From: Devosia sp. 66-14
Lineage (GTDB): Bacteria > Pseudomonadota > Alphaproteobacteria > Rhizobiales > Devosiaceae
DNA length: 64,000 bases
Direction of reading: 5' to 3'
Assembly: GCF_001899085.1 (NCBI RefSeq)
Contig: NZ_MKVB01000006.1
Location: 1,073,492 to 1,137,491, forward strand
Below the pieces are notes generated by a model. The model was not told the DNA's origin and made no database searches. It was given only the letters and a program-made list of their open reading frames with translations. Shown piece after piece: positions 12,141 through 46,638 of the stretch. Positions within the stretch are counted from its first letter, which is position 1; each line of letters begins with the position of its first letter. The position numbers and the translations under genes are program-made.

Positions 12141-12290
12141 TTTTATCCTGATGTCGACCGCGCCATGAGTCAAGGCAGATTCTGGAACAGGGCATCTCGG
12201 TGGATTTCGGTTGCACGAAACCCTGCAACTGCTAGGTATTGCAACAGAATTGTCCGCCGAGTTCCCCACCAAGCGAGCCTCCACTCCGGA

Positions 12291-12306
12291 TAGAAGCGGT
12301 TCGAGA
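12291..12306. promoter_or_regulatory. Second LacI-family operator (TAGAAGCGGTTCGAGA), probably autoregulatory
   Basis: Near-match to the 12125 palindrome, ending 8 nt before the lacI ATG. Confidence 0.55.
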
Positions 12307-12314
12307 AACAACTG

Positions 12315-13322: not shown

Positions 13323-13421
13323 TACGGCAGAGACCTCCGCCCTTCCGCTGCGGATCGCGGCATAGCCGCTTCCACCCGCTCGTCCTCGGCCTTATGGTTG
13401 GCGAAGCTGGAGGATTGCAGA

Positions 13422-14228: not shown

Positions 14229-14231
14229 GGC

Positions 14232-15107
14232 TCAGAGCGCCGGCAGCGACCGGCTCATGAGGAAGCCGAGGGTCAGAAGCAATTCGTGCGAGCTGGTAAA
14301 GTGCACCCGGCTGGCGCGCGAGAGGTTCTCGGCATAGCTGCGGTTGGGAGCCGCCGCTGCGATGGTCCGCAGGCGCGCTCGGTCGCGTTGCGGCAGGTTC
14401 CCGGCAGCGAGATAGAGCAACTGGGCGCCTAGCCCCTCGAACAGCGGCGTGATCCTGACATTGGCAAACCTGGCCGCCGCTTCGGGCGACAGCAGCGCCG
14501 GATCAAAATCCAGCCCGTAACCGCCATCGACCTGACGCAAGCGACCGTCGATCAGCGGCAGTGCCCGCTGCGGCGTGAGCCCGGCGAACTCGGTGGTGTC
14601 GACCAGAAAACGCCTGGCGTCGGCAAGGGTAGCGAACCCTGCCCCGCCGGCGGCCTCCCTGACGGCATCGTCGACCGCCAGCCGCCACGGGAACCCGACA
14701 TCGGCCAGCACGAGCTTGGAGACCGTCAGTTCCTGCAGTCGCGTGAGCCCCAGGGCAAGCACCCCACCCCAGCCCTTGCCGATGACCATCAGCCGGGTGG
14801 TCCCCAGGGATTGGGCGAGCGCGAGCAACGCAACCATGTAGGTGTGGGGGTTGTAGTCGGCGACGTCGAGATAGGCGCTGGCCCCTCGCCCCGGCATATC
14901 GGGACAGACGACGCGAAATCCGTGCCCCGAAAGAACCACGGCAAGCCGCGAAAAGTCGGCGCCGTTGCCGAGAAAGTCGGGGATGCAGATGACGGTGCGC
15001 GTGGCCTTCTGAGGCTCGTATACCAGATAGGACAGCTCGGCGAAGCCTGCGGCGAGCGGCACGGCCAGCCGCCGGCGATCGGGCATTGGTGTACTGGACA
15101 TGTTCAT
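14232..15107 (-). CDS. Alpha/beta-hydrolase-fold protein lacking the catalytic Ser
   Basis: 'FRVVCPDMPGRGAS' is canonical. The nucleophile elbow reads 'IGKGWGG' instead of G-x-S-x-G. Confidence 0.75.
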   Translation of the reverse strand: MNMSSTPMPDRRRLAVPLAAGFAELSYLVYEPQKATRTVICIPDFLGNGADFSRLAVVLSGHGFRVVCPDMPGRGASAYLDVADYNPHTYMVALLALAQSLGTTRLMVIGKGWGGVLALGLTRLQELTVSKLVLADVGFPWRLAVDDAVREAAGGAGFATLADARRFLVDTTEFAGLTPQRALPLIDGRLRQVDGGYGLDFDPALLSPEAAARFANVRITPLFEGLGAQLLYLAAGNLPQRDRARLRTIAAAAPNRSYAENLSRASRVHFTSSHELLLTLGFLMSRSLPAL

Positions 15108-16309
15108 GCGCGTGTGGCGGCCTGCGCCTTGACCTCGCTGACCAGCGTCTCGAGCTGCGCGACGATCGCCGGCAAGCGCAGCGCCGGGTCATGCTCCTTC
15201 CAGCGCTCCAGCGACGCCAGGTGGTAGTGCTGGTAGGTCTCGTCGTCGGTCAGCAGCGTCCGCAATACCTCCACCCAGGGAATGGCGTCCGTCAGCGGGG
15301 GGACCAGCCAGTGGTCGCGAACGAGCGGTTCCGGCGGATCGATAACGATGCCCGCATCGCCAACCAGTTCGGGCAAGCCGCCCCTGTTCGTAACCACGGC
15401 AGGGATGCCCATCGACAGGGCCTCGACCGAGACACGCGGACCGCTATCGTGCCAGAGCGACAGCGCCAGCAGAACCTTGGTTGCGGCAAACACCGCGCCC
15501 ATGTCCTTCTGCAAACCGACGCGCGTCAGGTTGGGATAACGCGAGAGATCGATGCCGGTACGCCGCTCGGCATCGGACAGGGAGCTGCGGCTTTCGACGA
15601 CGAGGAACTTCGCCTCCGGCAAGGTCTGCGCCGCCAGCTCGACGATGCGCAGAAACAGCGTCACACCCTTTTCAGCCGCCGGGTTGATGAACGTCACATA
15701 TTGCGGCGACTGGGCATTGGCCGGCACCGTGGGTTTCTCGATGAACTTGCCGATCACCTGGCAGTTGAAGCCGAAACGTTCGGCAAACAGCTGCCGCGTC
15801 GCTTCGGTGTCGGTGAAGATGTGATCGACATGCGTGAAGGCTTCGAGCTTTTTGTAGCCTGGGTGCACCAGGTAAAAGATCGTCGCTATGCCGCGCTCGC
15901 GCGCCTTGCGCAGCAGCGATCGCTCGTAGCGGCGTGAACCGTACAGCAGCAGCACATCCGGCTGATAGGTGTCGAGCATCCGCAGCACCCGATTGTAGAG
16001 GGTCTGCTCTTCCTCGAGGGTGAACTCCCTCTGCGTCAGGTGCTCGGTGAACTCGACATAATGATGCACGTCGCCATCGACACCCAGCCAGAGCGTCTGG
16101 GGCAGCCCTGGCTCCTGAACCGGCTTGGCGCCGGTCGACATCAGGTTTTCCAGGGCATTACCGGGCCCAGGCCGATCATAGACATTGGCGCTGAAGGAAC
16201 GGCACTCGACGCCGTAGCGGCTGAGAAACTGCAGGAAAGTCTTGATGCTGATCGCGGCACCATTGCTGGTGTCGAGGGTGCAGTTGATGGCGCTGAACAG
16301 CAGCTTCAA
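15104..16309 (-). CDS. Glycosyltransferase family 4 (GT-B)
   Basis: 'FINPAAEKGV', 'QKDMGAVFAATKVLL', 'DSGPRVSVEALSMGIPAVVTNRGGLPE' (D/E-x7-E motif). Confidence 0.85.
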   Translation of the reverse strand: MKLLFSAINCTLDTSNGAAISIKTFLQFLSRYGVECRSFSANVYDRPGPGNALENLMSTGAKPVQEPGLPQTLWLGVDGDVHHYVEFTEHLTQREFTLEEEQTLYNRVLRMLDTYQPDVLLLYGSRRYERSLLRKARERGIATIFYLVHPGYKKLEAFTHVDHIFTDTEATRQLFAERFGFNCQVIGKFIEKPTVPANAQSPQYVTFINPAAEKGVTLFLRIVELAAQTLPEAKFLVVESRSSLSDAERRTGIDLSRYPNLTRVGLQKDMGAVFAATKVLLALSLWHDSGPRVSVEALSMGIPAVVTNRGGLPELVGDAGIVIDPPEPLVRDHWLVPPLTDAIPWVEVLRTLLTDDETYQHYHLASLERWKEHDPALRLPAIVAQLETLVSEVKAQAATRA

Positions 16310-16415
16310 GATGACATCTCACTGGCTTGGCAACGCCTTAGTCTGCCGCCGGCGCGCGCGGTTGTCACTCGCCAACTTGGCCTCGAGCGGCCATCACGGC
16401 ACGTCAGCATCACAA

Positions 16416-35884: not shown

Positions 35885-37096
35885 ATGTCGAAGTCGAAGA
35901 ATCCGCTGAACGACGAGAAAAACCGCTCCCCCGCCACCCAGGTCGTGCATGGCGGCACGCAGCGAAGCCAGTTCAAAGAGACCTCGGAAGCGATCTTCAT
36001 GAACTCGGGCTACTCCTACCCGAGCTCGCAATATGCCGAGGACCTGTTCCTCAACAAGATCAACAAACCGGCCCATAATTACTCGCGCTTCGCCAACCCG
36101 ACGATGGACATGTTCCAGGACCGGATGGCGCTGCTCGAAGGCGCGGAAGCCGCGCGGGCCTTCGCCACCGGCATGTCGGCAGTCACCAACGCAGTGATGA
36201 GCCAGGTGCGGGCCGGCGACCACATCGTGGCGGCGCGCGCGCTATTCGGCGGGTGTCGCTATGTCGTCGAGGACCTGATGCCGCGCTTCGGCGTCAACTC
36301 CACGCTGGTCGACGGGCGCGACCCCGAGAACTTCGCCCGGGCGATGCGAGAGAACACCAAGGTGATCTTCATCGAGACGCCGACCAACCCGACGCTGGAA
36401 CTGGTCGACATCGCGGCCGTGGCGAAGATCGCCAAGGCGCATGGCGCCAAGCTGATCGTCGACAACGTGTTCGCCACCGCGCTGTTCCAGAAGCCGTTGC
36501 AGCTGGGCGCGGACCTCGTCACCTATTCGGCGACCAAGCATATCGACGGCCAGGGCCGGGCACTGGGCGGTATCGTTCTGGGGTCGAAGGAACTGATCGA
36601 GGGTGATGTACACACCCTGTTGCGCCAGACCGGGCCGTCATTGTCGCCGTTCAATGCGTGGGTGCTGCTCAAGGGCATCGAGACGCTGCCGATCCGCGTC
36701 AGGCAGATGACCGAGGGCGCGACTAAGGTGGCCGACTTCCTCGCCGGGCACCCCAAGATCGAGCGCGTCTCCTACCCGTTCCACCCCTCGCACCCGCAAT
36801 ACGAACTGGCCAAGCGGCAGATGAAGAGCGGTTCGACGCTGGTGGCGTTCGAGGTCAAGGGTGGGCGCGAGGCGGCGTTCACGCTGTCGGACTCGCTGGC
36901 GGTGATCCTGATCTCCAACAACCTCGGAGATGCCAAATCGCTGATCACCCATCCGGGCACCACCACCCATGCCCGGTTCACCGAGGAGGTTCGGCTGGAA
37001 TCGGGCATCACCCCGGGCCTGCTGCGGCTTTCGGTGGGGCTCGAGGACGCCGATGACCTGATCAAGGACCTCGAATACGGGCTGAGCCAGGTCTAG
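35885..37096 (+). CDS. metZ: O-succinylhomoserine sulfhydrylase
   Basis: 'ETSEAIFMNSGY', 'YSRFANPT', PLP lysine 'YSATKHIDGQGR', 'SNNLGDAKSLITHP'. SAM-II leader. Confidence 0.93.
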   Translation: MSKSKNPLNDEKNRSPATQVVHGGTQRSQFKETSEAIFMNSGYSYPSSQYAEDLFLNKINKPAHNYSRFANPTMDMFQDRMALLEGAEAARAFATGMSAVTNAVMSQVRAGDHIVAARALFGGCRYVVEDLMPRFGVNSTLVDGRDPENFARAMRENTKVIFIETPTNPTLELVDIAAVAKIAKAHGAKLIVDNVFATALFQKPLQLGADLVTYSATKHIDGQGRALGGIVLGSKELIEGDVHTLLRQTGPSLSPFNAWVLLKGIETLPIRVRQMTEGATKVADFLAGHPKIERVSYPFHPSHPQYELAKRQMKSGSTLVAFEVKGGREAAFTLSDSLAVILISNNLGDAKSLITHPGTTTHARFTEEVRLESGITPGLLRLSVGLEDADDLIKDLEYGLSQV

Positions 37097-37197
37097 GGCG
37101 AGGTGTCCGGCCTGACGCAATCTGCGAGTGCAGACGGCGTCGGGCCGGCGGATCGCAGCGCGGCCGGGCGCATCTTGCCGACGACGCGGCGAACGGC

Positions 37198-37779
37198 TCA
37201 TTGCGGCTCGACCGGCGCCTGCCAGAACGGGCCGCGCATCCACTGGTCGCGGAACAGCTCGAAGTTGACGAAGTCGATAATCTCGCCGGTCACCGGGTTC
37301 TGCTTATGGCGATGCCAGGTGCCGACATGGTCGAAGCCCAGACGGCGATAGCTGAAGATCGACGCGGCGTTGCGGGAATCGACCACCCCATAGAAGCGCT
37401 CGACGCCGCAATGGGCAAAGAAGTGGTTCAGCAGGCGGGCTCGCACCTCGACCACAACGTTCCTGCCCCACCAGGTGCGGTCATGCACGGCGACGGTGCC
37501 GAAGGCCGAGCGATAGCCTTGCAGCCGCACCATATGCGCGCCGATGGGCACCTGCTCACCCTTGGGGATGATGGCAAAAGCGAAACGGTTGCGAGTGCGC
37601 GGCAGCGGCCCGCGCAGCAGCCAGTGCCCAAGCGAGCGAGGCTTGGACGTCTGCATCAGGCCGGTGAGAATCTCCGGATCGTGGCGCCAGCTATTGGTGA
37701 CGCGCACGGCCTCGATCAGCCCCATGGGCTTGAGGATGAAGCGTTCGGTTTCAAGCGGACCGACGACCAGCTTGCTCAT
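37198..37779 (-). CDS. RimJ/RimL-type GNAT N-acyltransferase (last gene of the RiPP operon)
   Basis: 'LETERFILKP', 'WWGRNV', 'NAASIFSYRRLGF'. ATGA overlap with the upstream ligase. Confidence 0.8.
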   Translation of the reverse strand: MSKLVVGPLETERFILKPMGLIEAVRVTNSWRHDPEILTGLMQTSKPRSLGHWLLRGPLPRTRNRFAFAIIPKGEQVPIGAHMVRLQGYRSAFGTVAVHDRTWWGRNVVVEVRARLLNHFFAHCGVERFYGVVDSRNAASIFSYRRLGFDHVGTWHRHKQNPVTGEIIDFVNFELFRDQWMRGPFWQAPVEPQ

Positions 37780-39173
37780 TGCCGTTCGACCATGGCGCGG
37801 ACATCGGCGCGCACGATCTTGCCGCGATCATTGCGCGGGATCGCCGCCACCGCGAACAGCCTCGAGGGCACGGCCTCGTCGCGCACACGGGCCCGGCACC
37901 AGGCCTTCAACGCCTCGGGATCGAACGATGCTCCGTCAGCGAGGACGATTGCCGCGGCCACGGCCTCGCCGGCAATGGCATCCGGAATGCCGAAGGCACA
38001 GGCCTCGGCGATCGCCTCATGCCGCTCGAGCAGCATGTCGATCTCCTCGGCCTGGATCTTGATGCCGCCGCGGTTGATCTCGGATTTGCTGCGGCCGACG
38101 AGGATGAGGTTGCCGGCCTGGTCCAGCTCGCCGATGTCGCCGGTGCGGAACCAGCCATCGACGAACGCGGCCTCGTCGAGGTCGGGGCGTTGCCAGTAAC
38201 CCAGCATCATCGAGGGGCTTTGCACCAGCACCTCGCCGCGTCCCGCGGCATCGGCGGCGATGGCGACGTTGCCGCCCCAGAGCCGGCCGACATAGCCGTC
38301 GCGCGCCTCGGCCTCGTCGAGACTGCCGCCGGCGATCCAGTTGGCGGTTTCGGTCATGCCGAACATGTTGAACACCTGGCGCGTGCCGCACCACTCGGCG
38401 ATGGCGCGCCAGTGTTCGATGGAGAGCGGGGCCGAGCCGACATGGACGCGCTCCAGCACCGGGCCGGGACGCGCCGAGACGCGCAGCGCCAGCTTCCAGA
38501 ATGACGGCACCGAACTCATGAAGCTGATGCGGTTGGCCGTCAGATAGCCGGCGAGGCCGGCGAGTTCGCCGAGCGCCGGACTCGGCCACAGGTGTACCCG
38601 TCCACCGGCCAGCAGCGGGGTCAGGACGTTGCCGATCAGCCCATGGCCAAAGAACACCGGCAGCACGCAGAGGCTTTCGCGCAGGGTATGGGGGCCGATC
38701 TCGGCGCTGTTCAAAGCGGCGCGGGCAAGCAGGCTGCGCACCGAATGGACGATGCCCTTGGGCCTCCCGGTGGTGCCGGAGGTCATCAGGATAAGAGCCG
38801 GATCATCGAGGCGCAGCGGCCTCGGCTCCCCCTGCTCCGGAGCGCCGCTGGCCGGCCGCTGCGGGCCGAGCCAGATCGAGGCACCGGTGGCCTGCAGCAC
38901 GTTCTCGCACTCTTCAGACCTGAGGCCGGGATTGACCGCGACAGCGACGAGGCCGACCTCCCAGCAGGCGAAGATGGCAACGAGATAGTCGACAGGATTG
39001 GGCTCGGCCACCACCGCCCGGGCGCCTGGCCTTAGGCCGCGGCCCGTCAGTTCGGCGGCCTTGTCGCCCACCCGCCGGCGGATGCCTTCCGCGCTCAGCG
39101 CCGCGCCGCCCCTCACATCGACCAGGGTCGCGGCTGCAGGAAGCATGGCAGTGAACGAGAGGTTCCGGATCAT
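37776..39173 (-). CDS. AMP-dependent synthetase/ligase (ANL) in the RiPP operon
   Basis: 'ILMTSGTTGRPKG', 'FGMTET', 'WFRTGDIG', 'INRGGIKI', 'PRNDRGK'. ATGA overlaps at both ends. Confidence 0.9.
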   Translation of the reverse strand: MIRNLSFTAMLPAAATLVDVRGGAALSAEGIRRRVGDKAAELTGRGLRPGARAVVAEPNPVDYLVAIFACWEVGLVAVAVNPGLRSEECENVLQATGASIWLGPQRPASGAPEQGEPRPLRLDDPALILMTSGTTGRPKGIVHSVRSLLARAALNSAEIGPHTLRESLCVLPVFFGHGLIGNVLTPLLAGGRVHLWPSPALGELAGLAGYLTANRISFMSSVPSFWKLALRVSARPGPVLERVHVGSAPLSIEHWRAIAEWCGTRQVFNMFGMTETANWIAGGSLDEAEARDGYVGRLWGGNVAIAADAAGRGEVLVQSPSMMLGYWQRPDLDEAAFVDGWFRTGDIGELDQAGNLILVGRSKSEINRGGIKIQAEEIDMLLERHEAIAEACAFGIPDAIAGEAVAAAIVLADGASFDPEALKAWCRARVRDEAVPSRLFAVAAIPRNDRGKIVRADVRAMVERQ

Positions 39174-40144
39174 CCAGCGCCTCGCGGGACGATGCGCTGC
39201 AGGCCACGGAAGGTGTGGCGGCGGACCTTGGAGAAGAACGCCGTGGGGGCGGCGAGCACCGCGGCGCCATCGACCAGCCGGGTTGCAAAGCCGCTGGCAC
39301 TGCCGCCGTCGATACGACCGCCGGCGGCATGGGCGGCGGGAGCGTCGAACAGTTCGGCGATCAATTCGAGGCAGAGGCGCGCCTCGAGCCCGAGGCCCAG
39401 CCGGCGCGCCATCTCCGGCAACAGGGCGACTTCATCGGGCGAGAGGTGGCGCCAGGCCTGCAGCACGTCGACCAGCAGCCGAAGCTGGTGGAACTTGTGA
39501 CCCAGTGCGGCATGGACCACGGCGACGAAGAACTGCGGCAGGCCGGCGCTCGCGTCACCCCGGCCGCTGGCCATGAACTCGGCATAGCCGAAGCTGATGC
39601 GCCGGCGCAGGCCCTGGTAGTGCACCAGGTTGCCATGCACCTCGATCAGCAGTGCATCCATGTCGGGCTGGATCCACTTTTCTTCCTGGTTCTGTTCGGT
39701 GTGGTCGAGCAGCGGTTTCAGGAACAGCCGATAGCCGAGCCCGGTCAGCAGGTCGCCGATCGGGGCGCGGGCCGAGGGCGCCACCATGATGTCGATATCG
39801 GTGAAGGGTCGATCCGACGGTGCCGGATAGATCTGCCGGGCAAAGACCGGGCCCTTGACGATCACCGCCTCGAGGCCGTTCTCGGCGATATGGCGGTCGA
39901 CCTTGGCGGCGATGCCGCGCAGGTGCATCGACAGGCCGACCAGCAGGGTCAGCTCGCCCTGCGCCTCCCGAAGCGCGGCAGTGCTGTGCTGGGGAGCGAG
40001 CTTGCGCGTCACGACGGGCAGCACATTGTGGTCACGCGCCAGCTGCAGCAGTGGGTCGACCAGTTCCGCCGGGACGGTGGCGGCCGGCGCCTCAGGGTCG
40101 GCCAGGGTGCACACCAGCGTGTCGAGCCGGGCGATCATCATCAT
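39170..40144 (-). CDS. Nucleotidyltransferase of the type found in RiPP/lasso clusters (PF14907-like)
   Basis: 'IVKGPVFARQIYP..SDRPFTDIDIMV', 'IEVHGNL', 'HAALGHKF..LRLLVDV'. Confidence 0.8.
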   Translation of the reverse strand: MMMIARLDTLVCTLADPEAPAATVPAELVDPLLQLARDHNVLPVVTRKLAPQHSTAALREAQGELTLLVGLSMHLRGIAAKVDRHIAENGLEAVIVKGPVFARQIYPAPSDRPFTDIDIMVAPSARAPIGDLLTGLGYRLFLKPLLDHTEQNQEEKWIQPDMDALLIEVHGNLVHYQGLRRRISFGYAEFMASGRGDASAGLPQFFVAVVHAALGHKFHQLRLLVDVLQAWRHLSPDEVALLPEMARRLGLGLEARLCLELIAELFDAPAAHAAGGRIDGGSASGFATRLVDGAAVLAAPTAFFSKVRRHTFRGLQRIVPRGAG

Positions 40145-41136
40145 GCAACGATCTTTTCGATGTTGAGCGCCGCCAGCATGACCGGTGTGAGGTCGGTCGG
40201 ATCGGACCCGGCGGACAGCCGATAGGCGGGCACGGCTCGCACCAGGTCACCGAGCCGCCTGAACAGTTCGCGCTCGCCCTTGGGCACACCGACCCTGGTG
40301 GAACGCACGTTGTCGGCGGCGGCGAGGGCAAGCACCTCGGCCTTGCTGGTCGGCTCGCAGCGGCTCGTCGTCTCGCCGCTGCGCTCCAGCACGAGAACCG
40401 CCGCGATCTCGCGCGCGGCGATGCTCTCGACGCTGACCGTGGTCCTCAGCGCCGCGAGGGTCACCGGCCGCTCGTCCTCGGCGCTCCACTCGCCACTCAG
40501 CAGCGGTTTCACCCAGGGCAGCATTTCGGCGGTGCGGCGATGCACCTTGAGGTTTCGCGGCATGCCCCAGGCGGTCGGCCGGTCAGCGCCGACATTGCAG
40601 GCCATGGCATCGTCGGAGCAGAGACCCAGGCCCCCGGCGGCCAGCGCCAGGGTCGAAGTGGTCTTGCCGGCGCCACTGCGGCCGAAGATCAGCGCCACGC
40701 GACCATCAGGCAGGGTCAGCCCGGCGGCGTGGACGAGAAACTGGTTCGCGGCCAGCAGCGCCGCCTGCAAGGCAAGCTGCCCGCAGGTCATGACGATCCG
40801 CTCCTCGGCCCCCGGGGCGACGATGATGGTCGCCTCGCGCGCCGTATCGGACAGGGTGAGCGAAATGACGCCCGGAAACGCCAGGACGCGTTCCTGCGGT
40901 GCCTGCCAGAAGCAGGCCTCGCCCTCGTCGAGGATCGGCCCCTGATACAATGGGTCGGTGCCCTGCGGCATCGCCAGCGGCTCGCCCGAGGTGATGGTGA
41001 GTCCGAAGGCCAGCGGAGCGGTCGGCAGGGGGCGCGAGCGGCCGGCGAAGATACGGCCGAAGAAATCCACCAGCACCGGCTGTATGGCGGTGACCCGCAG
41101 CGAGGCGCCCTGCAGGTCGAAGAACTTCTGGATCAA
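40141..41136 (-). CDS. HPr-kinase-like P-loop kinase (RiPP Ser kinase type)
   Basis: 'VHAAGL...ALIFGRSGAGKTT...LCSDD', the HprK-like His, P-loop and DD signature. Confidence 0.82.
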   Translation of the reverse strand: MIQKFFDLQGASLRVTAIQPVLVDFFGRIFAGRSRPLPTAPLAFGLTITSGEPLAMPQGTDPLYQGPILDEGEACFWQAPQERVLAFPGVISLTLSDTAREATIIVAPGAEERIVMTCGQLALQAALLAANQFLVHAAGLTLPDGRVALIFGRSGAGKTTSTLALAAGGLGLCSDDAMACNVGADRPTAWGMPRNLKVHRRTAEMLPWVKPLLSGEWSAEDERPVTLAALRTTVSVESIAAREIAAVLVLERSGETTSRCEPTSKAEVLALAAADNVRSTRVGVPKGERELFRRLGDLVRAVPAYRLSAGSDPTDLTPVMLAALNIEKIVA

Positions 41137-41606
41137 ACTCTGGCTCCGTGCGGGTCCGCCGGCCCGACCGCCGGGGCGGCGTGCACATGAATCTGCACCT
41201 GGCCGGGGATGCGGGCATTGATGACTTCAACGCCGTCCAGCGTCACCCAGCAATGCGCTGAAAGGCTCGGCCGGCCGATGGATTTGGGGTCGACGGAAAA
41301 ATGCAGGCGTGGCTCGTAGCCGCAACGACGCAAGGCGGCGAAGCCGACCAATCCGCTGCGCAGGCACCGATTGTTGCGCATCAGGATGGGCCAGCGCGCC
41401 GCACGCCGTACCGAGCGGGCGATGTAGGAGACCGGAAAGCGCGGCCAGCTATGGGGCGGCACCGCCGAGACGTCGCTCAGTATCTGGGAGAACTCGCGGC
41501 CTGCGATACGTGCCGGAAGCGTTCGCGCCGCGATCCACAGCCGTAAACGAAATGCCAGCCGATCGAGGGACCCGGCGCCGGCCTGTTCTGCCGGCTCACG
41601 CGGCAT
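41133..41606 (-). CDS. Lasso-type B2 leader peptidase (transglutaminase-like)
   Basis: Catalytic 'RCLRSG' Cys and 'SAHCWV' His. ATG 41606 overlaps the PqqD 3' end. Confidence 0.85.
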   Translation of the reverse strand: MPREPAEQAGAGSLDRLAFRLRLWIAARTLPARIAGREFSQILSDVSAVPPHSWPRFPVSYIARSVRRAARWPILMRNNRCLRSGLVGFAALRRCGYEPRLHFSVDPKSIGRPSLSAHCWVTLDGVEVINARIPGQVQIHVHAAPAVGPADPHGARV

Positions 41607-41865
41607 GCACGATGATGCCTTCAGCAACCAGCCCGGCGATCAGTTCCGGCAGGTCGTCGGCCAGCGTGGCGGCGTCGACCTCGAACTCATCGGCCATGCG
41701 ATGCGCCACGGCTTCGACGTTGCGGACGCCGTCGAGATGCTTGAGGAAACAGAGCGAGGTGTCGTTGCACGAATAGAGCTGCCCGCTGCCAAGCAGGAGG
41801 ATGACAGCGCCCTCCCCCACCGGTTCGAACGAAACTTCGTCGCCGAGGCGGTACACTGCATCCAT
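41596..41865 (-). CDS. PqqD-family RiPP recognition element (B1/RRE)
   Basis: 89 aa. 'GEGAVILLLGSGQLYSCNDTS...LDG...VAHRMADEFEV...DDL..LIAGLVAEGII'. Confidence 0.88.
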   Translation of the reverse strand: MDAVYRLGDEVSFEPVGEGAVILLLGSGQLYSCNDTSLCFLKHLDGVRNVEAVAHRMADEFEVDAATLADDLPELIAGLVAEGIIVHAA

Positions 41866-41896
41866 TCACGCACCAGAAATTCAAGACAAACAGGGT

Positions 41897-41918
41897 CGGG
41901 GCCGGAGAGCCGGCCCCG
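41897..41918 (-). terminator. GC hairpin between the last precursor and the RRE gene (attenuator or mRNA stabiliser)
   Basis: 9-bp stem CGGGGCCGG-agag-CCGGCCCCG starting 5 nt after the precursor stop, followed by 'ctgtttgtctt' on the minus strand. Confidence 0.6.
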
Positions 41919-41923
41919 CGCAA

Positions 41924-42013
41924 TCACACCGGCGGAGTTTTGCTCGTCGCAGCAGAAATCGCTGCAAGCTTCTGCTCTTTGACGATGGTCGGCTTGGCGT
42001 AGACCTTCTTCAC
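41924..42013 (-). CDS. RiPP precursor A6, MKKVYAKPTIVKEQKLAAISA-ATSKTPPV (29 aa)
   Basis: Manually translated. GTG start 7 nt after AGGAGG, TGA at 41924-41926, YxKPxI leader. Confidence 0.88.
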   Translation of the reverse strand: MKKVYAKPTIVKEQKLAAISAATSKTPPV

Positions 42014-42149
42014 GTTCAGTCCTCCTGCAATCTGCCCCAATGCAGATTTCTGGCAGCCTATCACGATCCGGCCGCGAACTCACACCCGAACGAAAGAGCC
42101 CCGCCCCCGCGTACCGATGCGGTCGTTACGCGACGAGACGGCGCCGCAA

Positions 42150-42233
42150 TCAGAACGGCTTGCTGCTCACAGCGGTGATCGCCACGAGTTTCTGGTCCTT
42201 GACCAGCGTCGGCTTGCTGTAGTGCTTCTTCAT
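42150..42233 (-). CDS. RiPP precursor A5, MKKHYSKPTLVKDQKLVAITA-VSSKPF (27 aa)
   Basis: Manually translated. Purine-rich RBS (GGGGATGAAG) and conserved leader. Confidence 0.88.
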   Translation of the reverse strand: MKKHYSKPTLVKDQKLVAITAVSSKPF

Positions 42234-42297
42234 CTTCATCCCCAAATCGCCCAGATCGGACCGACTCGAGCCGGTCCAATTCGCCACATCCACCAGA

Positions 42298-42393
42298 CTA
42301 TTGTTGGGGCATTTTGCTGGAAACCGGCACAGCCGTAATGGCAGCCAGTTTCTGCTCTTTGACCAGAGCCGGCTTCGTGTACGTCTTCTTCAT
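42298..42393 (-). CDS. RiPP precursor A4, MKKTYTKPALVKEQKLAAITA-VPVSSKMPQQ (31 aa)
   Basis: Manually translated. GGGGGA RBS, TAG at 42298-42300. Confidence 0.88.
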   Translation of the reverse strand: MKKTYTKPALVKEQKLAAITAVPVSSKMPQQ

Positions 42394-42513
42394 GGTTATC
42401 CCCCAACCTACACGCTCACGGTGCAGATCTTCAGACTAGCAGAAGTTGCGCCCGTCCGGACAATCACTTCTTTGCTGTCATCGACAAGGGATCGGCGACC
42501 CCGAGTCTTATCG

Positions 42514-42600
42514 TCAGCCAGCCGGTTTGCTGACAACAGCAGTGATAACCGCGAGCTTCTGGTTCTTGACCAGCGTCGGTTTCGTGTAGGTCTTCTTCAT
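42514..42600 (-). CDS. RiPP precursor A3, MKKTYTKPTLVKNQKLAVITA-VVSKPAG (28 aa)
   Basis: Manually translated. GAGAGGGA RBS and conserved leader. Confidence 0.88.
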   Translation of the reverse strand: MKKTYTKPTLVKNQKLAVITAVVSKPAG

Positions 42601-42650
42601 CTGCATCCCTCTCAAGACGGCCTATCGGGTCCGGATGACACCGGACGCGA

Positions 42651-42746
42651 TCACGGAGGCGGAGCTTTGCTCGAAATCGGAGCTGCTGTGATGGAGGTCA
42701 GCTTCTGCTCTTTGACAAGAGCCGGCTTGGAATAGGTCTTTTTCAT
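42651..42746 (-). CDS. RiPP precursor A2, MKKTYSKPALVKEQKLTSITA-APISSKAPPP (31 aa)
   Basis: Manually translated. AGGGA RBS and conserved leader. Confidence 0.88.
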   Translation of the reverse strand: MKKTYSKPALVKEQKLTSITAAPISSKAPPP

Positions 42747-42874
42747 CATCATTCCCTATGCGCGCCCCCAAGGCGCGACGACGGCAGAGTAACAGAACCG
42801 ATGCAGATCGGAAAACCCGGTTGTCTTGCTGTCACCAGGAAAAGGAGACCGGAGCGATGCCCCGGCCCCTCAGG

Positions 42875-42964
42875 TCACGTCACCTTGCTGGAAATCGGCT
42901 CGGCGGTGATCGAGGTGAGCTTCTGCTCTTTGACAAGCACAGGCTTGGTATAGGTCTTTTTCAT
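42875..42964 (-). CDS. RiPP precursor A1, MKKTYTKPVLVKEQKLTSITA-EPISSKVT (29 aa)
   Basis: Manually translated. GGGA RBS and conserved leader. Confidence 0.88.
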   Translation of the reverse strand: MKKTYTKPVLVKEQKLTSITAEPISSKVT

Positions 42965-43046
42965 AGTATGTCCCAAAAATTCCCCTGCACAACCAGCAGG
43001 GTAGCAGGGAAACTACCTGAGTCGGCCGACCCCGCAACCGCTCCGT

Positions 43047-43271
43047 CTAGATTTTGCGGTACAGCATGACCCGCTGGGCGAGTCCCCTGCCCTCGAAGCG
43101 CGTCACCTCGGCCACCAGGTTGACCGGACGCCCATCGAGCGCCAGCGGCGCGTCGGTCAGCCGGCGCGCCGCCGCAATCGGTTCGGGCGCTTCGACCGTC
43201 TGCGGCAGGCTGACGCTGGGGGGCTTGGCTCGATAGTCGTAGAGCGTGACGGTGTATCGGGGCATCGGCAT
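43047..43271 (-). CDS. Small hypothetical protein (about 72-76 aa) upstream of the precursor array
   Basis: 3' part of track ORF 43047..43790, 'MPMPRYTVTLYDYR...VMLYRKI', with high GC3 codon usage. Start could be 43265, 43271 or 43277. Confidence 0.5.
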   Translation of the reverse strand: MPMPRYTVTLYDYRAKPPSVSLPQTVEAPEPIAAARRLTDAPLALDGRPVNLVAEVTRFEGRGLAQRVMLYRKI

Positions 43272-43457
43272 TCTCATCGGCTGCTGTGCGGTCGCGACGA
43301 GCGACCATAGCCTCCGGCAGCTGACAGGTTGCTGAACCCCGCGCGTCCTCACGCACCTTGCGAAGAATTCACCCACCTTACCAAGCCCTAATGCGACTTC
43401 TTGATCTCGGCGCTCTACTTTAGGTGCGATGGGTATTTGGGCTTTGCAGGTGCGGCG

Positions 43458-44681
43458 ATGAAGCGGTGGTTGAAGTGGATTGTCCTGGTGGTCCTGCTCG
43501 GCGCAGCCGGCGCGGGCTGGCTGGTGTTCAGCGCCCCCGCCAAGGATGAGGTGCCGCGCACGACGCCGGTGGCCCGCGGCAATGTCGAAGAAACCGTCCT
43601 CGCCTCGGGCGTGATCCAGGCCAGTTCGCTGGTCAGCGTCGGCGCCGAGGTCTCGGGCCGGATCAAGACGCTCAATGTCGCCCTGGGCGACGACGTGAAG
43701 GCCGGCGACGTGATCGCCGAGATCGACTCGCTGAACCAGGAGAACGCGGTGAAGGCGGCGCAGGCGGCGCTCGCCAACACCGAGGCGCAAAAGACCATCC
43801 AGACCGCCAATCTGGGCCAGGCGAGAACCGCGCTGGACCGGGCGGAAAAGCTCAGCCCGCAGAAACTGATCTCAGATGCCGACCTGCAGACGGCCCAGTT
43901 GGCGGTGCAGACCGCCGAAGGACAGCTGCAGGCGATCGACGCGCAGATCCAGCAGGGGCAGATCAACGTCGAGGCGGCGCAGCTCAATCTCGATCGCACC
44001 AAGATTGTCGCGCCGTCGGACGGCACGGTCGTGGCGGTGTCGGTGGAAGTCGGCCAGTCGGTCAATGCCAACAATTCCTCGCCGACCATCGTCAAGCTCG
44101 CCAACCTCGACAAGATGGTGGTGAAGGCGGAAATCTCGGAGGCCGACGTGCCGCGGGTGGAGCCCGGGCAGCAGGTCTATTTCACCATCCTCGGCGATCC
44201 CGACACGCGCATCAATGCGACCCTGCGGGCGGTCGAGCCGGCGCCGGATTCGATCGCCTCGGACGACACGTCGTCGAGCTCGTCGGCCACCGCGGTCTAT
44301 TACAACGGCCTGTTCGACGTCGATAATCCCGGCCACAAGCTGCGCATCTCGATGACCGCACAGGTGACGATCGTGCTCAAGTCGGTCGACGACGTGCTGA
44401 CCGTGCCCGCCTCGGTGCTGGGCCGGAAGGGTCGCGACGGCAACTACCTCGTGCAGGTCTGGGACCAGCAGAAGGGCGCGGTCGAGCCCAGGAAGGTCAG
44501 TGTCGGGCTCAACAACAACGTGACGGCCGAGGTGCTGGACGGGCTCAGCGAAGGCGACCTGGTGGTCAACGGCACCGCCGCCGCGCCGGCAGCCCGTACC
44601 GGCAACGCGCAAGGCGGCGGCAACCGGAACATCCTCACCGGCGGCGGACCGCCGGTCGGAGGGTTCGGGCGCGGAGGCTGA
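43458..44681 (+). CDS. macA: MacA-family periplasmic adaptor subunit
   Basis: N-terminal TM, 'VSVGAEVSGRIKTL', 'TKIVAPSDGTV', 'KAEISEADV', 'LRISMTAQV'. Confidence 0.9.
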   Translation: MKRWLKWIVLVVLLGAAGAGWLVFSAPAKDEVPRTTPVARGNVEETVLASGVIQASSLVSVGAEVSGRIKTLNVALGDDVKAGDVIAEIDSLNQENAVKAAQAALANTEAQKTIQTANLGQARTALDRAEKLSPQKLISDADLQTAQLAVQTAEGQLQAIDAQIQQGQINVEAAQLNLDRTKIVAPSDGTVVAVSVEVGQSVNANNSSPTIVKLANLDKMVVKAEISEADVPRVEPGQQVYFTILGDPDTRINATLRAVEPAPDSIASDDTSSSSSATAVYYNGLFDVDNPGHKLRISMTAQVTIVLKSVDDVLTVPASVLGRKGRDGNYLVQVWDQQKGAVEPRKVSVGLNNNVTAEVLDGLSEGDLVVNGTAAAPAARTGNAQGGGNRNILTGGGPPVGGFGRGG

Positions 44682-44685
44682 GGCC

Positions 44686-46638
44686 ATGACCGAGCCGCTG
44701 ATTTCCATCCGGAAGCTCCGCCGCGAGTATCCGATCGGCACCGAGAGCATCACGGTGCTCAAGGATATCGACCTCGACATCGAGGCCGGCGAGATGATCG
44801 CCATCATCGGACAATCCGGCTCCGGCAAGTCGACATTGATGAACGTGCTCGGCTGCCTCGATAATGGCTGGACCGGCGAATACCGGCTCGCCGGACGCGA
44901 CATCGCGCGGCTCAAGCCCGATGAGCTGGCCGAGCTCCGGCGCGAGCATTTCGGTTTCATCTTCCAGCGCTACCAATTGCTGGCCGATCTCGATGCGCTG
45001 GAAAATGTCGAAGTGCCGGCGATCTATGCCGGTGCGCGCAAGCAGGCGCGGCGCGAGCGGGCGCACAAGCTGCTGGAGCGGCTGGGTCTGGGCGAGCGGC
45101 TGACGCACCGGCCGAACGCCCTGTCCGGCGGCCAGCAGCAACGTGTCAGCGTGGCGCGCGCGCTGATCAATGGCGGCGAGGTGATCCTCGCGGACGAACC
45201 CACCGGGGCGCTCGATTCACGGAGCGGCAAGGAGCTCATGGCGTTGCTCAAGGAGCTCAATGCCGAAGGGCATACCATCATCATCGTCACGCACGACCCC
45301 ACGGTGGCGGCACAGGCCGACCGGGTGGTCGAGCTGAGCGACGGCGTGATCGTCGCCGACCGCCGCAAGGATGGAGTCGATGCCCCGGCCGGCCGGTCCG
45401 GCGACGCCATCAAGCGGATTCCGCGCTGGCGCGAAGCGATCGACCGGGTCGGCGAAGCCTTCCAGATGGCGCTCAGGGCGCTGTCGAGCCATCGCCTGCG
45501 CACCTTTCTCACCATGCTCGGCATCATCATCGGCATCGCCTCGGTGGTGTCAGTGGTGGCGCTGGGGCAAGGCAGCCAGCAGGCGGTGCTCGACCGGATC
45601 AGTTCGATCGGCACCAACACCATCAACATCCTGCCCGGCACCAATGCCGCAGACCGGCGACGCGACGCGATCCGCACGCTGGTGCCGGCCGATGCGGCGG
45701 CGATCGCCGCGGAAAGCTACGCCGACAGCGTGACCCCGCAGGTCTCCAGCAACGGCCAGGCGCGCTATCGCAACGTCAGCGCCGCCGCGCAGGTGCAGGG
45801 CGTCGGGCCCGACTATTTCCGGGTCAACAATCGCAGCTTCGTCGAGGGTGCGGCATTCGATACGGCCAGCACCAGCGCGCTGGCGCAGGTGGCGGTGATC
45901 GACACCACGGCGCGCGACACGCTGTTCACCAACGGCGAAGATGCGGTCGGGCAAGTGGTGCTGGTCGGCAATGTGCCGCTCAGGATCATCGGCGTGGTCG
46001 CGGCGAGCACCAACAATTTCGGGCCGCAATCGAACTCGATCAGCATCTGGATGCCCTACACCACCGCGATGTCGCGGATCCTGGGGCAGAGCTGGCTGTC
46101 GACGATCACGGTCCGTGTCGCCGACACAGCCGACGTCACCGAGGCGCAGGCGGAGATCCAGGCGCTGCTCGAGCAGCGGCACGGCACGGTGGATTTCAGC
46201 CTGCAGAACACCGACACCATTCGCGAGACCATCCAGTCGACCTCGCAGACGCTGACGCTGCTGATCTCGGCCATTGCCGTGATCTCGCTGATCGTGGGCG
46301 GCATCGGGGTGATGAACATCATGCTGGTGTCGGTGCGCGAGCGGACCCGCGAGATCGGCGTGCGCATGGCGGTCGGGGCCCGGCAGGGTGATATCCTGCA
46401 GCAGTTCCTGATCGAGGCGGTGCTGGTCTGCCTGATCGGCGGCACGGTCGGTGTGCTGTTGTCGCTGGGCATCGGCTTCGGCGTCGAGCGGCTGATGAGC
46501 GGGCTCACCTTCATCTACTCGCCGGCGACGATCATCGCGGCGTTCGTCTCGTCGAGCCTGATCGGCGTGCTGTTCGGCTTCATGCCGGCGCGTTCGGCGG
46601 CGCGCCTCGACCCGGTGGTGGCGCTGGCCAGCGAGTGA
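44686..46638 (+). CDS. macB: MacB-family ABC exporter (ATPase + permease fusion)
   Basis: 'GQSGSGKST', 'LSGGQQQRV', 'ILADEPTGALD', 'LTMLGIIIGIASVV', 'GGIGVMNIMLVSVRERTREIG'. Confidence 0.95.
   Translation: MTEPLISIRKLRREYPIGTESITVLKDIDLDIEAGEMIAIIGQSGSGKSTLMNVLGCLDNGWTGEYRLAGRDIARLKPDELAELRREHFGFIFQRYQLLADLDALENVEVPAIYAGARKQARRERAHKLLERLGLGERLTHRPNALSGGQQQRVSVARALINGGEVILADEPTGALDSRSGKELMALLKELNAEGHTIIIVTHDPTVAAQADRVVELSDGVIVADRRKDGVDAPAGRSGDAIKRIPRWREAIDRVGEAFQMALRALSSHRLRTFLTMLGIIIGIASVVSVVALGQGSQQAVLDRISSIGTNTINILPGTNAADRRRDAIRTLVPADAAAIAAESYADSVTPQVSSNGQARYRNVSAAAQVQGVGPDYFRVNNRSFVEGAAFDTASTSALAQVAVIDTTARDTLFTNGEDAVGQVVLVGNVPLRIIGVVAASTNNFGPQSNSISIWMPYTTAMSRILGQSWLSTITVRVADTADVTEAQAEIQALLEQRHGTVDFSLQNTDTIRETIQSTSQTLTLLISAIAVISLIVGGIGVMNIMLVSVRERTREIGVRMAVGARQGDILQQFLIEAVLVCLIGGTVGVLLSLGIGFGVERLMSGLTFIYSPATIIAAFVSSSLIGVLFGFMPARSAARLDPVVALASE

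What the first reader, a model, noticed from the sequence alone, without database searches (positions are those of the whole stretch)
41924..42964. Hidden tandem array of six paralogous 27-31 aa precursor genes, absent from the ORF track
Manual translation gives six ORFs, each with its own RBS, sharing the leader MKKxYxKPx(L/I)VKxQKLxxI(T/S)A. Predicted cores are EPISSKVT, APISSKAPPP, VVSKPAG, VPVSSKMPQQ, VSSKPF and ATSKTPPV. Leader differences are concentrated at synonymous or conservative positions while cores and spacers differ, which fits purifying selection on the leader and diversification of the cores, as in a natural peptide library.
Basis: seen in the sequence. Interest (0 to 1): 0.9.

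Follow-up and report, generated by a model that had tools for sequence, protein, structure and literature searches.

The report
Cyclase-less lasso-type peptide precursor array
Six tiny, strongly transcribed genes in a Devosia genome encode precursors of very short modified peptides made by lasso-peptide-type enzymes that lack the ring-forming cyclase; this looks like an uncharacterised and widespread peptide natural-product family.

Summary
Six 27-31 aa ORFs lie on the minus strand at 41924-42964. Each has an RBS and the leader MKKxYxKPxLVKxQKLxxITA. The leader pattern matches six times against zero expected by chance. Leader pN/pS is 0.22, and spacers have diverged to background identity. Metatranscriptomes show the array plus PqqD at 5-45x depth, against 0-4x for the downstream enzyme genes.

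The array heads an operon encoding a PqqD/RRE, a lasso B2 protease, an HprK-type kinase, an NTP_transf_5 nucleotidyltransferase, an ANL ligase and a GNAT. The leader has the lasso recognition spacing (Y-17, P-14, L-12, T-2). No lasso cyclase is present, and the 6-10 aa cores lack the acidic residue needed for a ring, so these are not lasso peptides.

The module recurs in Devosia, Oricola and other Rhizobiales, with 2-10 precursors per locus. Of 54 Devosia-type cores, 47 contain Ser-Lys.

The inferred pathway runs from RRE binding to Ser phosphorylation and decoration of the phosphate, then leader removal, then acylation of an amine.

RefSeq calls two homologues "putative RiPP precursor", and I found no paper describing the system. 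The window's strain has lost the carrier-protein gene. The "peptide library" analogy is only partly apt.

The parts
42875..42964 (-). Precursor gene P1: MKKTYTKPVLVKEQKLTSITA | EPISSKVT
   Evidence: ORF and RBS. The first gene of every Devosia-type array has an EPxxSK core. RNA contigs reach 42976-42984 and so cover its RBS.
42651..42746 (-). Precursor gene P2: MKKTYSKPALVKEQKLTSITA | APISSKAPPP
   Evidence: Fully covered by RNA contigs.
42514..42600 (-). Precursor gene P3: MKKTYTKPTLVKNQKLAVITA | VVSKPAG
42298..42393 (-). Precursor gene P4: MKKTYTKPALVKEQKLAAITA | VPVSSKMPQQ
   Evidence: The only one of the six present as a called protein in the public collection.
42150..42233 (-). Precursor gene P5: MKKHYSKPTLVKDQKLVAITA | VSSKPF
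41924..42013 (-). Precursor gene P6 (GTG start): (M)KKVYAKPTIVKEQKLAAISA | ATSKTPPV
   Evidence: Counterparts with an ATG start exist in L124 and as P0128.
41897..41920 (-). GC-rich hairpin GGGGCCGGCUCUCCGGCCCC between P6 and pqqD
   Evidence: spacer z = -2.1. High RNA depth continues through pqqD, so it is not a full terminator.
41596..41865 (-). PqqD-family RRE (lasso B1-like leader-binding chaperone), 89 aa
   Evidence: PF05402 at E = 4.6e-12; weak match to lasso_PqqD. Co-transcribed at high level with the array.
41133..41627 (-). Lasso B2-type transglutaminase-like cysteine protease (leader peptidase), 164 aa
   Evidence: NF033537 lasso_biosyn_B2 at 47.8 bits, above the cutoff of 33; PF13471. 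Invariant Cys (CLR), AHCWV and Asp across 10 orthologues.
40141..41136 (-). HprK/P-related Ser kinase, 331 aa
   Evidence: HprK_rel_A/B at E about 3e-6. Invariant H136, G155xGK158T and D175D176. The profile's best PDB hits are HPr kinases at E about 1e-4.
39170..40144 (-). NTP_transf_5 nucleotidyltransferase-fold enzyme, 324 aa
   Evidence: PF14907 at E = 1.2e-23. This is the same Pfam family that Oricola's syntenic gene matches. I did not compare it with PsmN directly.
37776..39173 (-). ANL-superfamily adenylate-forming ligase, 465 aa
   Evidence: PF00501 and PF13193. A3, A5, A8 and A10 motifs are intact. Nearest structures are oxalate-, malonyl- and fatty-acyl-CoA ligases.
37198..37779 (-). 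GNAT acyltransferase (Acetyltransf_3, RimJ/RimL-like), 193 aa
   Evidence: PF13302 at E = 1e-9. Always adjacent to the ligase in relatives.
37097..37197 (-). Remnant (pseudogene) of the phosphopantetheine carrier-protein gene
   Evidence: Alignment A1 shows the 5' end retained, the WDS serine region deleted and the frame broken. Intact carriers are present in L001, L002, L004, L007, L008, L076, L077 and L129-131.
43050..43277 (-). Conserved 76-aa ORF of unknown function directly upstream of the array; membership in the system is uncertain
   Evidence: 69-81% aa identity at the same position in all Devosia-type loci. No Pfam match. No RNA coverage in X9 or X19.
42983..43001 (-). Terminator-like hairpin plus T-run after the 76-aa ORF; the array's transcript starts at or just after it
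   Evidence: RNA contigs end at 42976-42984.
43401..46638 (+). Divergent HlyD-family adaptor (43401-44681) and MacB-type ABC exporter (44686-46638); candidate export system, weakly linked
   Evidence: Pfam. Syntenic in Devosia at 90-96% identity, but not linked to the module in L007, L008 or L130.

Best explanation
The six ORFs are genuine precursor genes of an uncharacterised RiPP pathway. The pathway is built on phosphorylated-lasso-peptide machinery (B1 RRE, B2 protease, HprK-type kinase, NTP_transf_5 enzyme), has no lasso cyclase, and has gained an acyl-capping unit (ANL ligase, GNAT and, in relatives, a carrier protein).

Shown: the genes are coding, under purifying selection, and transcribed far above the enzyme genes. 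The leader carries the lasso recognition spacing. The enzyme set is conserved across genera with intact catalytic motifs. No cyclase is present and no ring-acceptor residue exists in the cores.

Inferred, in order: (1) PqqD binds the YxKPxL leader. (2) The kinase phosphorylates the conserved core Ser, the Ser of the Ser-Lys motif, on the leader-bearing precursor. (3) The NTP_transf_5 enzyme decorates that phosphate with a hexose or nucleotide. (4) B2 cuts after Thr(-2)-Ala(-1) and releases 6-10 aa linear cores. (5) The ligase activates a carboxylic acid and the GNAT transfers it to the new alpha-amine, or less likely to the Lys. (6) The products are exported, possibly by the adjacent MacAB-like pump. 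The bioactivity is unknown.
For: Coding and selection. Transcription: contigs at 100% identity cover 41547-42962 at 17-33x against 0-3x over the enzymes in X9 and X19, reproduced in X25, X26 and X27, and at least 14 RNA libraries hold the array. Enzyme identities. Leader spacing: Y-17, P-14, L-12; Thr at -2 in 38 of 54; Ala at -1 in 51 of 54, matching the documented YxxPxL at -17 to -12 and Thr/Ile/Val/Ala at -2 (PMC10368454). Precedents: lasso kinases act on linear, leader-bearing precursors, including an internal Ser3, with help from B1, and the NTase homologue PsmN adds hexose to phosphoserine (PMC9266682; PMC10368454). Module conservation with 2-10 precursors per locus: Devosia L001-L004 and 12 metagenome loci, Oricola indica L130, Rhizobiales L007, L008, L076, L077. 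All enzymes have dN/dS of 0.05-0.26. The capping unit is tied to the peptides: in Hoeflea two precursors flank the ligase-GNAT-carrier trio alone, and a formyltransferase occupies the equivalent place in the 4-gene variant L054. Lys is not conserved in the cores of distant full-module loci, which favours the alpha-amine as the common acceptor. A carrier-dependent GNAT acylating a RiPP N-terminus is known from the goadvionins (PMC8784127).
Against: No chemistry has been observed, so every modification step is inferred from homology and gene context. The kinase match to HprK is weak outside the P-loop and DD core. I did not compare the NTase sequence with PsmN directly. The acyl substrate is unknown. 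The window's strain lacks an intact carrier gene, so the acylation step may differ or fail here, although the ligase and GNAT show no relaxed selection. The exporter link holds only within Devosia. Contig depth from Logan assemblies is only a rough expression measure, and the libraries give no strand information.
Confidence: 0.7

Rival explanations
1. The ANL ligase, with or without the carrier and GNAT, functionally replaces the missing lasso cyclase. It would activate a peptide carboxylate (the C-terminus) and form a macrolactam with the new N-terminus or the conserved Lys, giving small cyclic peptides rather than N-acylated linear ones.
For: The cyclase is absent while an ATP-dependent carboxylate-activating enzyme is invariably present in full modules. 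A Lys is conserved in Devosia cores. The ligase is unusually short (465 aa) and forms its own well-conserved subfamily at 55-57% identity across families.
Against: The distance from Lys to the C-terminus varies from 1 to 7 residues, and Lys is absent from most cores in distant full-module loci. A dedicated carrier protein plus a RimJ/L-type GNAT is the standard arrangement for transferring a small acyl group. A formyltransferase takes this place in the 4-gene variant. The nearest structures are small-acid and fatty-acid CoA ligases.
Confidence: 0.12
2. The locus is a decaying remnant of a lasso-peptide cluster that lost its cyclase and, in this strain, its carrier gene. The peptides would no longer be matured into anything functional.
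For: No cyclase is present. The carrier gene is a pseudogene in the window.
Against: The cyclase-less architecture is conserved across several genera, with all enzymes under purifying selection at dN/dS 0.05-0.26 and intact catalytic motifs. The leader pN/pS is 0.22. The array is among the most highly transcribed parts of the locus in many independent samples. The cores are uniformly too short for a lasso and lack the acidic acceptor, which points to long-standing adaptation to a different product.
Confidence: 0.08
3. These are ordinary lasso peptides, and their cyclase is encoded elsewhere in the genome.
For: The B1, B2, kinase and NTase genes and the leader motif are all lasso-type. Only 64 kb of the genome could be examined.
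Against: The cores are 5-13 aa long (6-10 aa in the window), and only 1 of 54 has Asp or Glu at positions 7-9, the ring acceptor that lasso macrolactams require (requirement stated in PMC10368454). No Asn-synthetase-type gene lies within about 10 kb of the module in any locus, including the Pfam-annotated Oricola genome. The window's only SGGxDS ORF is an alpha-L-fucosidase.
Confidence: 0.03
4. The ORFs are chance reading frames within a non-coding repeat or a structured RNA array.
For: They are very short, and most are not called by gene finders. GC content dips to 0.565 across the array.
Against: Substitutions concentrate at third codon positions in this frame (17/20 against 5/20), with pN/pS 0.22. 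Flanks and spacers are at random identity, so this is not a DNA repeat. Every copy has an RBS. No Rfam family matches. The spacers have no significant structure. The peptide family recurs across genera with different codons.
Confidence: 0.01

Closest known systems
Phosphorylated lasso peptide clusters (paeninodin PadeA/B1/B2/C/K, pseudomycoidin Psm, Bradymonas Bsf A-B1-B2-C-K-N)
   Same: They share a split B1 (PqqD RRE) and B2 protease, an HprK-type kinase with His/Lys/Asp-Asp, and an NTP_transf_5-type 'N' gene. The leader has YxxPxL at -17 to -12 and a small or Thr residue at -2, and the core has a Ser acceptor near its N-terminus, as with Ser3 of BsfA.
   Different: There is no lasso cyclase, and the cores are 5-13 aa without Asp/Glu at positions 7-9, so no ring or threading is possible. 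There are multi-copy precursor arrays (2-10 genes) instead of a single A gene. An ANL ligase, GNAT and carrier unit has been added.
Goadvionins and lipolanthines (N-acylated PK/FA-RiPP hybrids)
   Same: A GNAT is encoded with a dedicated carrier protein and an acyl-activating function next to RiPP precursors. The goadvionin GNAT transfers a carrier-bound acyl group to the peptide N-terminus (PMC8784127).
   Different: The window has no PKS/FAS genes and no lanthionine- or avionin-forming enzymes. Leader handling uses lasso-type B1/B2. Homology of this GNAT to GdvG was not tested. The window lacks an intact carrier gene.
Selidamides and nostolysamides (GNAT acylation of Lys/Orn side chains in RiPPs)
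   Same: A GNAT sits in a RiPP cluster, and the Devosia-type cores have a conserved Lys that could accept an acyl group.
   Different: Lys is not conserved in the cores of distant full-module loci. The associated core-modifying enzymes are different.
Prochlorosin-type multi-precursor systems (one enzyme set, many precursors)
   Same: Several paralogous precursors with a conserved leader and differing cores are served by one enzyme set. Additional precursor loci with the same leader lie away from any enzymes.
   Different: The cores here are far shorter and share a fixed Ser-Lys motif, and counterparts are conserved between strains. The comparison with prochlorosins rests on my own knowledge and not on a tool result.

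Membership tests
Lasso peptides | PqqD-like RRE (B1) that binds the leader | tested here: met
   PF05402 at E = 4.6e-12; best NCBIfam hit is lasso_PqqD, below its cutoff.
Lasso peptides | Transglutaminase-like Cys protease (B2) with a Cys/His/Asp triad | tested here: met
   NF033537 at 47.8 bits, above the cutoff of 33. Cys, His and Asp are invariant in 10 orthologues.
Lasso peptides | Leader with YxxPxL at -17 to -12 and Thr (rarely Ile/Val/Ala) at -2 | tested here: met
   Y5, P8 and L10 of a 21-aa leader. Position -2 is Thr in 38, Val in 7, Ala in 5 and Ser in 4 of 54. The motif is as documented in PMC10368454.
Lasso peptides | ATP-dependent lasso cyclase (asparagine-synthetase homologue, C protein) | tested here: not met
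   No Asn_synthase among the Pfam-scanned ORFs at 32.6-50 kb. The only SGGxDS ORF in the 64 kb is a fucosidase. None is present in L001-L009 or the Pfam-annotated Oricola locus. The rest of the genome was not examined.
Lasso peptides | Core with an Asp/Glu ring acceptor at positions 7-9 and a tail long enough to thread | tested here: not met
   The window's cores are 6-10 aa with no Asp or Glu at positions 7-9. Only 1 of 54 Devosia-type cores has one.
Lasso-type kinase/NTase tailoring pair | [quoted passage not shown] | tested here: met
   H136, K158 and D175-D176 are invariant. HprK_rel_A/B match at E about 3e-6. HPr kinases are the top PDB profile hits. The motif is documented in PMC9266682.
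Lasso-type kinase/NTase tailoring pair | Nucleotidyltransferase-fold 'N' enzyme encoded beside the kinase | tested here: met
   PF14907 at E = 1.2e-23, adjacent to the kinase. Direct similarity to PsmN was not tested.
Lasso-type kinase/NTase tailoring pair | Phosphorylation of a core Ser on the leader-bearing precursor | not testable with these tools
   A conserved Ser is present in the cores (47 of 54 have Ser-Lys). The modification itself needs biochemistry.
Carrier-dependent GNAT-acylated RiPPs (goadvionin type) | GNAT acyltransferase in the cluster | tested here: met
   PF13302 at E = 1e-9. Relationship to GdvG was not tested.
Carrier-dependent GNAT-acylated RiPPs (goadvionin type) | Dedicated phosphopantetheine carrier protein | tested here: not met
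   The window holds only a broken remnant. Relatives have an intact PP-binding gene with an invariant WDS serine.
Carrier-dependent GNAT-acylated RiPPs (goadvionin type) | PKS/FAS genes that build the acyl chain | tested here: not met
   None in the window around the cluster. A ketosynthase and a second ACP lie next to the trio in Hoeflea only.
Combinatorial multi-precursor RiPP 'libraries' (prochlorosin-like) | Many precursors with a conserved leader and hypervariable cores processed by one enzyme set | tested here: inconclusive
   There are six precursors here and 2-10 in relatives, with leader aa identity 0.76 against core identity 0.41. However, the cores share Ser-Lys and are conserved between strains. 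No test for positive selection was possible on such short cores.

The most novel reading that the evidence does not exclude
This would be a founding example of a new RiPP class: descendants of lasso machinery that abandoned the cyclase. They would make very short (5-13 aa) phospho-decorated, N-capped peptides from multi-gene precursor arrays, or small macrolactams if the ANL ligase turns out to replace the cyclase. The same leader would also address hundreds of 'orphan' precursor loci that are processed in trans across soil and rhizosphere Alphaproteobacteria.
Probability: 0.45. Interest if true: 0.8.

Novelty: new variant of a known kind. Interest (0 to 1): 0.66.

Why it matters
Lasso B1/B2 enzymes are normally treated as diagnostic of lasso peptides. 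Here the same leader-recognition and cleavage machinery, together with the kinase/NTase tailoring pair, is conserved across genera without a cyclase and acts on cores too short to form a lasso. That would define a separate product class that lasso-centred genome mining mislabels or misses. The 27-31 aa precursors are mostly not called by gene finders. The system offers a compact set of enzymes that tolerate diverse short cores: a leader-dependent Ser kinase, a phosphate-decorating enzyme, a protease and an N-capping unit. It is abundantly expressed in algae-associated and other environmental Devosia, which points to an ecological role, either signalling or antagonism, that can now be tested directly.

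Tried and rejected
I replaced it with a degenerate-DNA scan of metagenomes and an exhaustive HMMER search using the six window peptides.
- Single-sequence PDB searches were uninformative for the kinase, NTase, GNAT and B2. A kinase profile was needed.
- Seven literature searches were run; an eighth attempt was rejected for a too-short term. Of the seven, six looked for a description of the system and one looked for acylation precedents. None found a cyclase-less B1/B2 + kinase + NTase + ANL + GNAT system or this leader family. This is absence from the held library, not proof that no publication exists.
- NCBIfam has no model for the peptides above its cutoff; there are only weak hits to lasso leader models.
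- The PP-loop scan for a hidden cyclase turned up only a fucosidase.
- Rfam gave only noise.
- The spacer hairpins are not significantly more stable than shuffles, except marginally after P6, so I make no attenuator claim.
- I suspected a leaderless P1 mRNA because the X9 and X19 contigs stop at the P1 ATG. I rejected this when contigs in X26 and X27 reached 42984 and 42976.
- I tested whether the ligase and GNAT are decaying after the carrier loss. They are not.
- The neighbours of precursor loci with other core types show no RiPP enzymes.
- The 201-aa ORF at 36638-37243 and the 247-aa ORF at 43047-43790 were rejected as antisense artefacts.
- I did not run structure prediction or fold searches; the profile evidence seemed sufficient for the enzyme assignments.
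Full report
**1. The observation**

| Gene | Coordinates (incl. stop) | Length | Predicted core |
|---|---|---|---|
| P1 | 42875-42964 | 29 aa | EPISSKVT |
| P2 | 42651-42746 | 31 aa | APISSKAPPP |
| P3 | 42514-42600 | 28 aa | VVSKPAG |
| P4 | 42298-42393 | 31 aa | VPVSSKMPQQ |
| P5 | 42150-42233 | 27 aa | VSSKPF |
| P6 | 41924-42013 | 29 aa, GTG start | ATSKTPPV |

- Each ORF is preceded by a purine-rich RBS. The spacers are 50-136 nt long.
- A degenerate DNA pattern for the invariant leader positions hits six times in the 64 kb, against zero in 100 shuffles.
- This is not a DNA repeat. Flanks, spacers and cores are at background identity (0.56-0.61, against 0.57 for shuffled sequence), while the 63-nt leader holds at 0.75.
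- Within the leader, 17 of 20 third codon positions vary, against 5 of 20 second positions. The Nei-Gojobori pS is 0.64 and pN is 0.14, a ratio of 0.22.
- So the reading frame is real and the peptide sequence is under purifying selection.
- No Rfam family explains the region.

**2. Expression**

- At least 14 RNA libraries, from algae-associated and soil metatranscriptomes, contain the array.
- In X9 a single 1416-nt contig at 100% identity covers 41547-42962 at depth 16.9. In X19 the contigs reach depth 33. The enzyme genes (37200-41400) and the divergent exporter show depth 0-3.
- X25, X26 and X27 reproduce the profile, with the array at 5-45x and the enzymes at 0-4x. Their contigs extend to 42984 and 42976, which covers P1's RBS.
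- The abundant transcript therefore runs from about 42985-43000 through P1-P6 and pqqD, and falls off near the pqqD/B2 junction.
- Contig depth is a rough measure and these libraries give no strand information. Uniform DNA contamination would not produce this local peak, however.
- The soil run X35 comes from a diverged strain with flat coverage and was not informative.

**3. Context**

The array heads a minus-strand operon whose genes have overlapping stops and starts.

| Gene | Coordinates | Evidence |
|---|---|---|
| PqqD-family RRE | 41596-41865 | PF05402 |
| Lasso B2 protease | 41133-41627 | NF033537 above its cutoff; Cys, His, Asp invariant |
| HprK-related kinase | 40141-41136 | |
| NTP_transf_5 enzyme | 39170-40144 | PF14907, E = 1.2e-23 |
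| ANL adenylate-forming ligase | 37776-39173 | A3, A5, A8, A10 motifs intact |
| RimJ/L-type GNAT | 37198-37779 | PF13302 |

- For the kinase, H136, the GxGK158T P-loop and D175-D176 are invariant across orthologues at 31-39% identity. The profile's four best PDB hits are HPr kinases. This supplies the His-Lys-Asp-Asp motif reported for lasso-tailoring kinases (PMC9266682).
- An HlyD adaptor and a MacB-type ABC exporter are transcribed divergently.
- There is no asparagine-synthetase-type lasso cyclase among the scanned ORFs. The only SGGxDS motif in the window belongs to an alpha-L-fucosidase.

**4. The leader is a lasso-type leader**

- An alignment of 38 precursors from nine loci shows K3, Y5, P8 and L16 invariant and A21 nearly so.
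- With cleavage after A21, Tyr, Pro and Leu fall at -17, -14 and -12, and Thr at -2. This is the spacing documented for lasso leaders, where the -2 residue may also be Ile, Val or Ala in phosphorylated lasso peptides (PMC10368454).
- Among 54 unique Devosia-type precursors, position -2 is Thr in 38, Val in 7, Ala in 5 and Ser in 4. Position -1 is Ala in 51.

**5. Why these are not lasso peptides**

- Lasso macrolactams need an Asp or Glu at core positions 7-9 (PMC10368454).
- The window's cores are 6-10 aa long with no acidic residue at those positions. Among the 54 Devosia-type cores (5-13 aa), only one has such a residue.
- Together with the missing cyclase, two defining features fail. The locus should not be filed as a lasso cluster, even though a B2-based rule would label it one.

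**6. Distribution**

- The organism is a Devosia. The B2 is 76-85% identical to that of D. insulae DS-56, Devosia sp. Root413D1 and Devosia MAGs.
- In all of these the whole module is syntenic between conserved housekeeping genes, and 3-5 precursor genes precede pqqD.
  - Twelve are Devosia-type, with 1-6 precursors each.
  - L076 and L077 carry the full module at 37-55% identity.
  - L052, L054, L079 and L116 carry only PqqD-B2-kinase-NTase.
- Rhizobiales MAGs L007 (10 precursors) and L008 (4 precursors), and the cultured Oricola indica (5 precursors with cores of 5-7 aa, only one of them called), have the full module without any Asn_synthase gene.
- All six enzymes evolve under purifying selection, with dN/dS of 0.05-0.26.
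- An exhaustive HMMER search with the six window peptides finds 89 cluster representatives, nearly all 26-48 aa long.

**7. The capping unit**

- In every relative, a 70-95 aa PP-binding carrier protein with an invariant WDS serine follows the GNAT.
- The ligase-GNAT-carrier trio also occurs without B1, B2, kinase or NTase. In Hoeflea marina it is flanked by two precursors with the same leader and sits next to a ketosynthase and a second ACP. A Paracoccaceae MAG also carries the trio alone.
- In the 4-gene variant L054, a formyltransferase occupies the equivalent position.
- This suggests that the interchangeable function is capping an amine with an acyl group.
- Lys is conserved only in the Devosia-type cores and is absent from most cores of distant full-module loci. 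The alpha-amine freed by B2 is therefore the most general acceptor.
- Documented precedents are carrier-dependent GNAT acylation of a RiPP N-terminus (goadvionins) and Lys acylation (selidamides) (PMC8784127).
- The ligase's nearest structures are oxalate-, malonyl- and fatty-acyl-CoA ligases. Its substrate cannot be named.

**8. Proposed mechanism**

Shown:
- The precursor genes are coding, selected and highly transcribed.
- The leader has the lasso spacing.
- The enzyme set is conserved and catalytically intact.
- There is no cyclase and no ring acceptor.

Inferred, in order:
1. The RRE binds the leader.
2. The kinase phosphorylates the conserved core Ser while the leader is still attached. 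Lasso kinases need the leader and are helped by B1, and BsfK targets an internal Ser3.
3. The NTP_transf_5 enzyme decorates the phosphate, as PsmN adds hexose to phosphoserine.
4. B2 cleaves after Thr-Ala.
5. The ligase and GNAT acylate the new N-terminus.
6. The product is exported, possibly by the MacAB-like pump. That pump is syntenic only within Devosia.

The biological role of the products is unknown.

**9. A peculiarity of this strain**

- In the window, only about 100 bp separate the GNAT stop from the convergent cystathionine-synthase-type gene.
- The alignment shows the 5' end of the carrier gene still present, but the WDS region is deleted and the frame is broken.
- tblastn finds no other copy in the 64 kb.
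- The ligase and GNAT show no relaxed selection. The loss is therefore either recent, or compensated by CoA or another carrier.

**10. The 'library' reading**

- The paralogous cores differ: aa identity is 0.41, against 0.76 for the leader.
- However, 47 of 54 Devosia-type cores contain Ser-Lys, with the Lys at core position 4-7.
- The first gene of each array always has an EPxxSK core.
- Each window core has a near-identical counterpart in another strain, for example ATSKTPPV/ATSKTPPT, VSSKPF/VSSKPV and EPISSKVT/EPVSSKVS.
- Variation is concentrated in the tail after the Lys. This is a constrained family of variants, not a hypervariable library.

**11. Novelty**

- RefSeq names two Root413D1 homologues 'putative RiPP precursor'. 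No NCBIfam model reaches its cutoff.
- The enzymes carry generic names only.
- Six literature searches aimed at the system found no description of it, and a seventh search, for acylation precedents, did not turn one up either.
- I rate it a new variant of a known kind: known enzyme families and a known leader logic, in an undescribed cyclase-less architecture with an unknown product.

Noticed in passing
window 37097-37197 (minus strand): The phosphopantetheine carrier-protein gene that follows the GNAT in every related locus is reduced here to a frame-broken remnant lacking the WDS serine region. No other copy exists in the 64 kb.
   Followed up: yes
window 43050-43277 (minus strand): A 76-aa ORF with no family match is conserved at 69-81% identity directly upstream of the array in all Devosia-type loci, and is followed by a terminator-like hairpin. 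It is absent from distant module loci and shows no RNA coverage in X9 or X19. Its function is unknown.
   Followed up: partly
L010-L128 (for example L040 13773-14193, L034 7521-7619, L061 2626-3248, L072 6684-7246): About 90 metagenome loci carry the same leader (MKKTYEKPxLxKRxKLSxVTA) but with other core types, such as CTPSTCVN, QIVASGVILGE, NGSGSKVPV and VSSVPR. They often occur as arrays, with no recognisable RiPP enzyme nearby, so they may be orphan precursors processed in trans or by unknown enzymes.
   Followed up: partly
L054 4529-5686 (also L052): A 4-gene variant of the module (PqqD-B2-kinase-NTase) has a Formyl_trans_N enzyme between the kinase and the NTase, in place of the ligase and GNAT.
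   Followed up: partly
L129 (Hoeflea marina) 9657-16409: The ligase-GNAT-carrier trio is flanked by two precursors but has no B1, B2, kinase or NTase. It lies next to a ketosynthase, a second ACP, an epimerase/dehydratase and an FAD oxidoreductase, which may supply a modified acyl chain.
   Followed up: no
window 42001-43000: GC content drops to 0.565 across the array, against about 0.66 in the surrounding sequence.
   Followed up: no
window 42301-42735 (+), 41801-42178 (+), 43047-43790 (-), 36638-37243 (-): Long spurious ORFs overlap the array or lie antisense to real genes. Public gene calls sometimes extend or fuse the small precursors (for example P0126 at 96 aa, P0140 at 66 aa, P0168 at 201 aa), which helps explain why the real genes are missed.
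   Followed up: partly
window 39016 / 44680: RNA contigs in X19, X25 and X27 show a 'joint' that skips 5663 bases, with only 20 nt matching on each side and several hundred unmatched letters between. This is most likely a foreign abundant transcript sharing two short words, not a rearrangement.
   Followed up: no
window 42845-42869, 42601-42650, 42234-42297, 41897-41920 (minus strand): A GC-rich hairpin follows most of the precursor stop codons. The hairpin after P1 has a U-run and looks like a terminator. Only the P6-pqqD spacer is more stable than shuffles (z = -2.1).
   Followed up: partly
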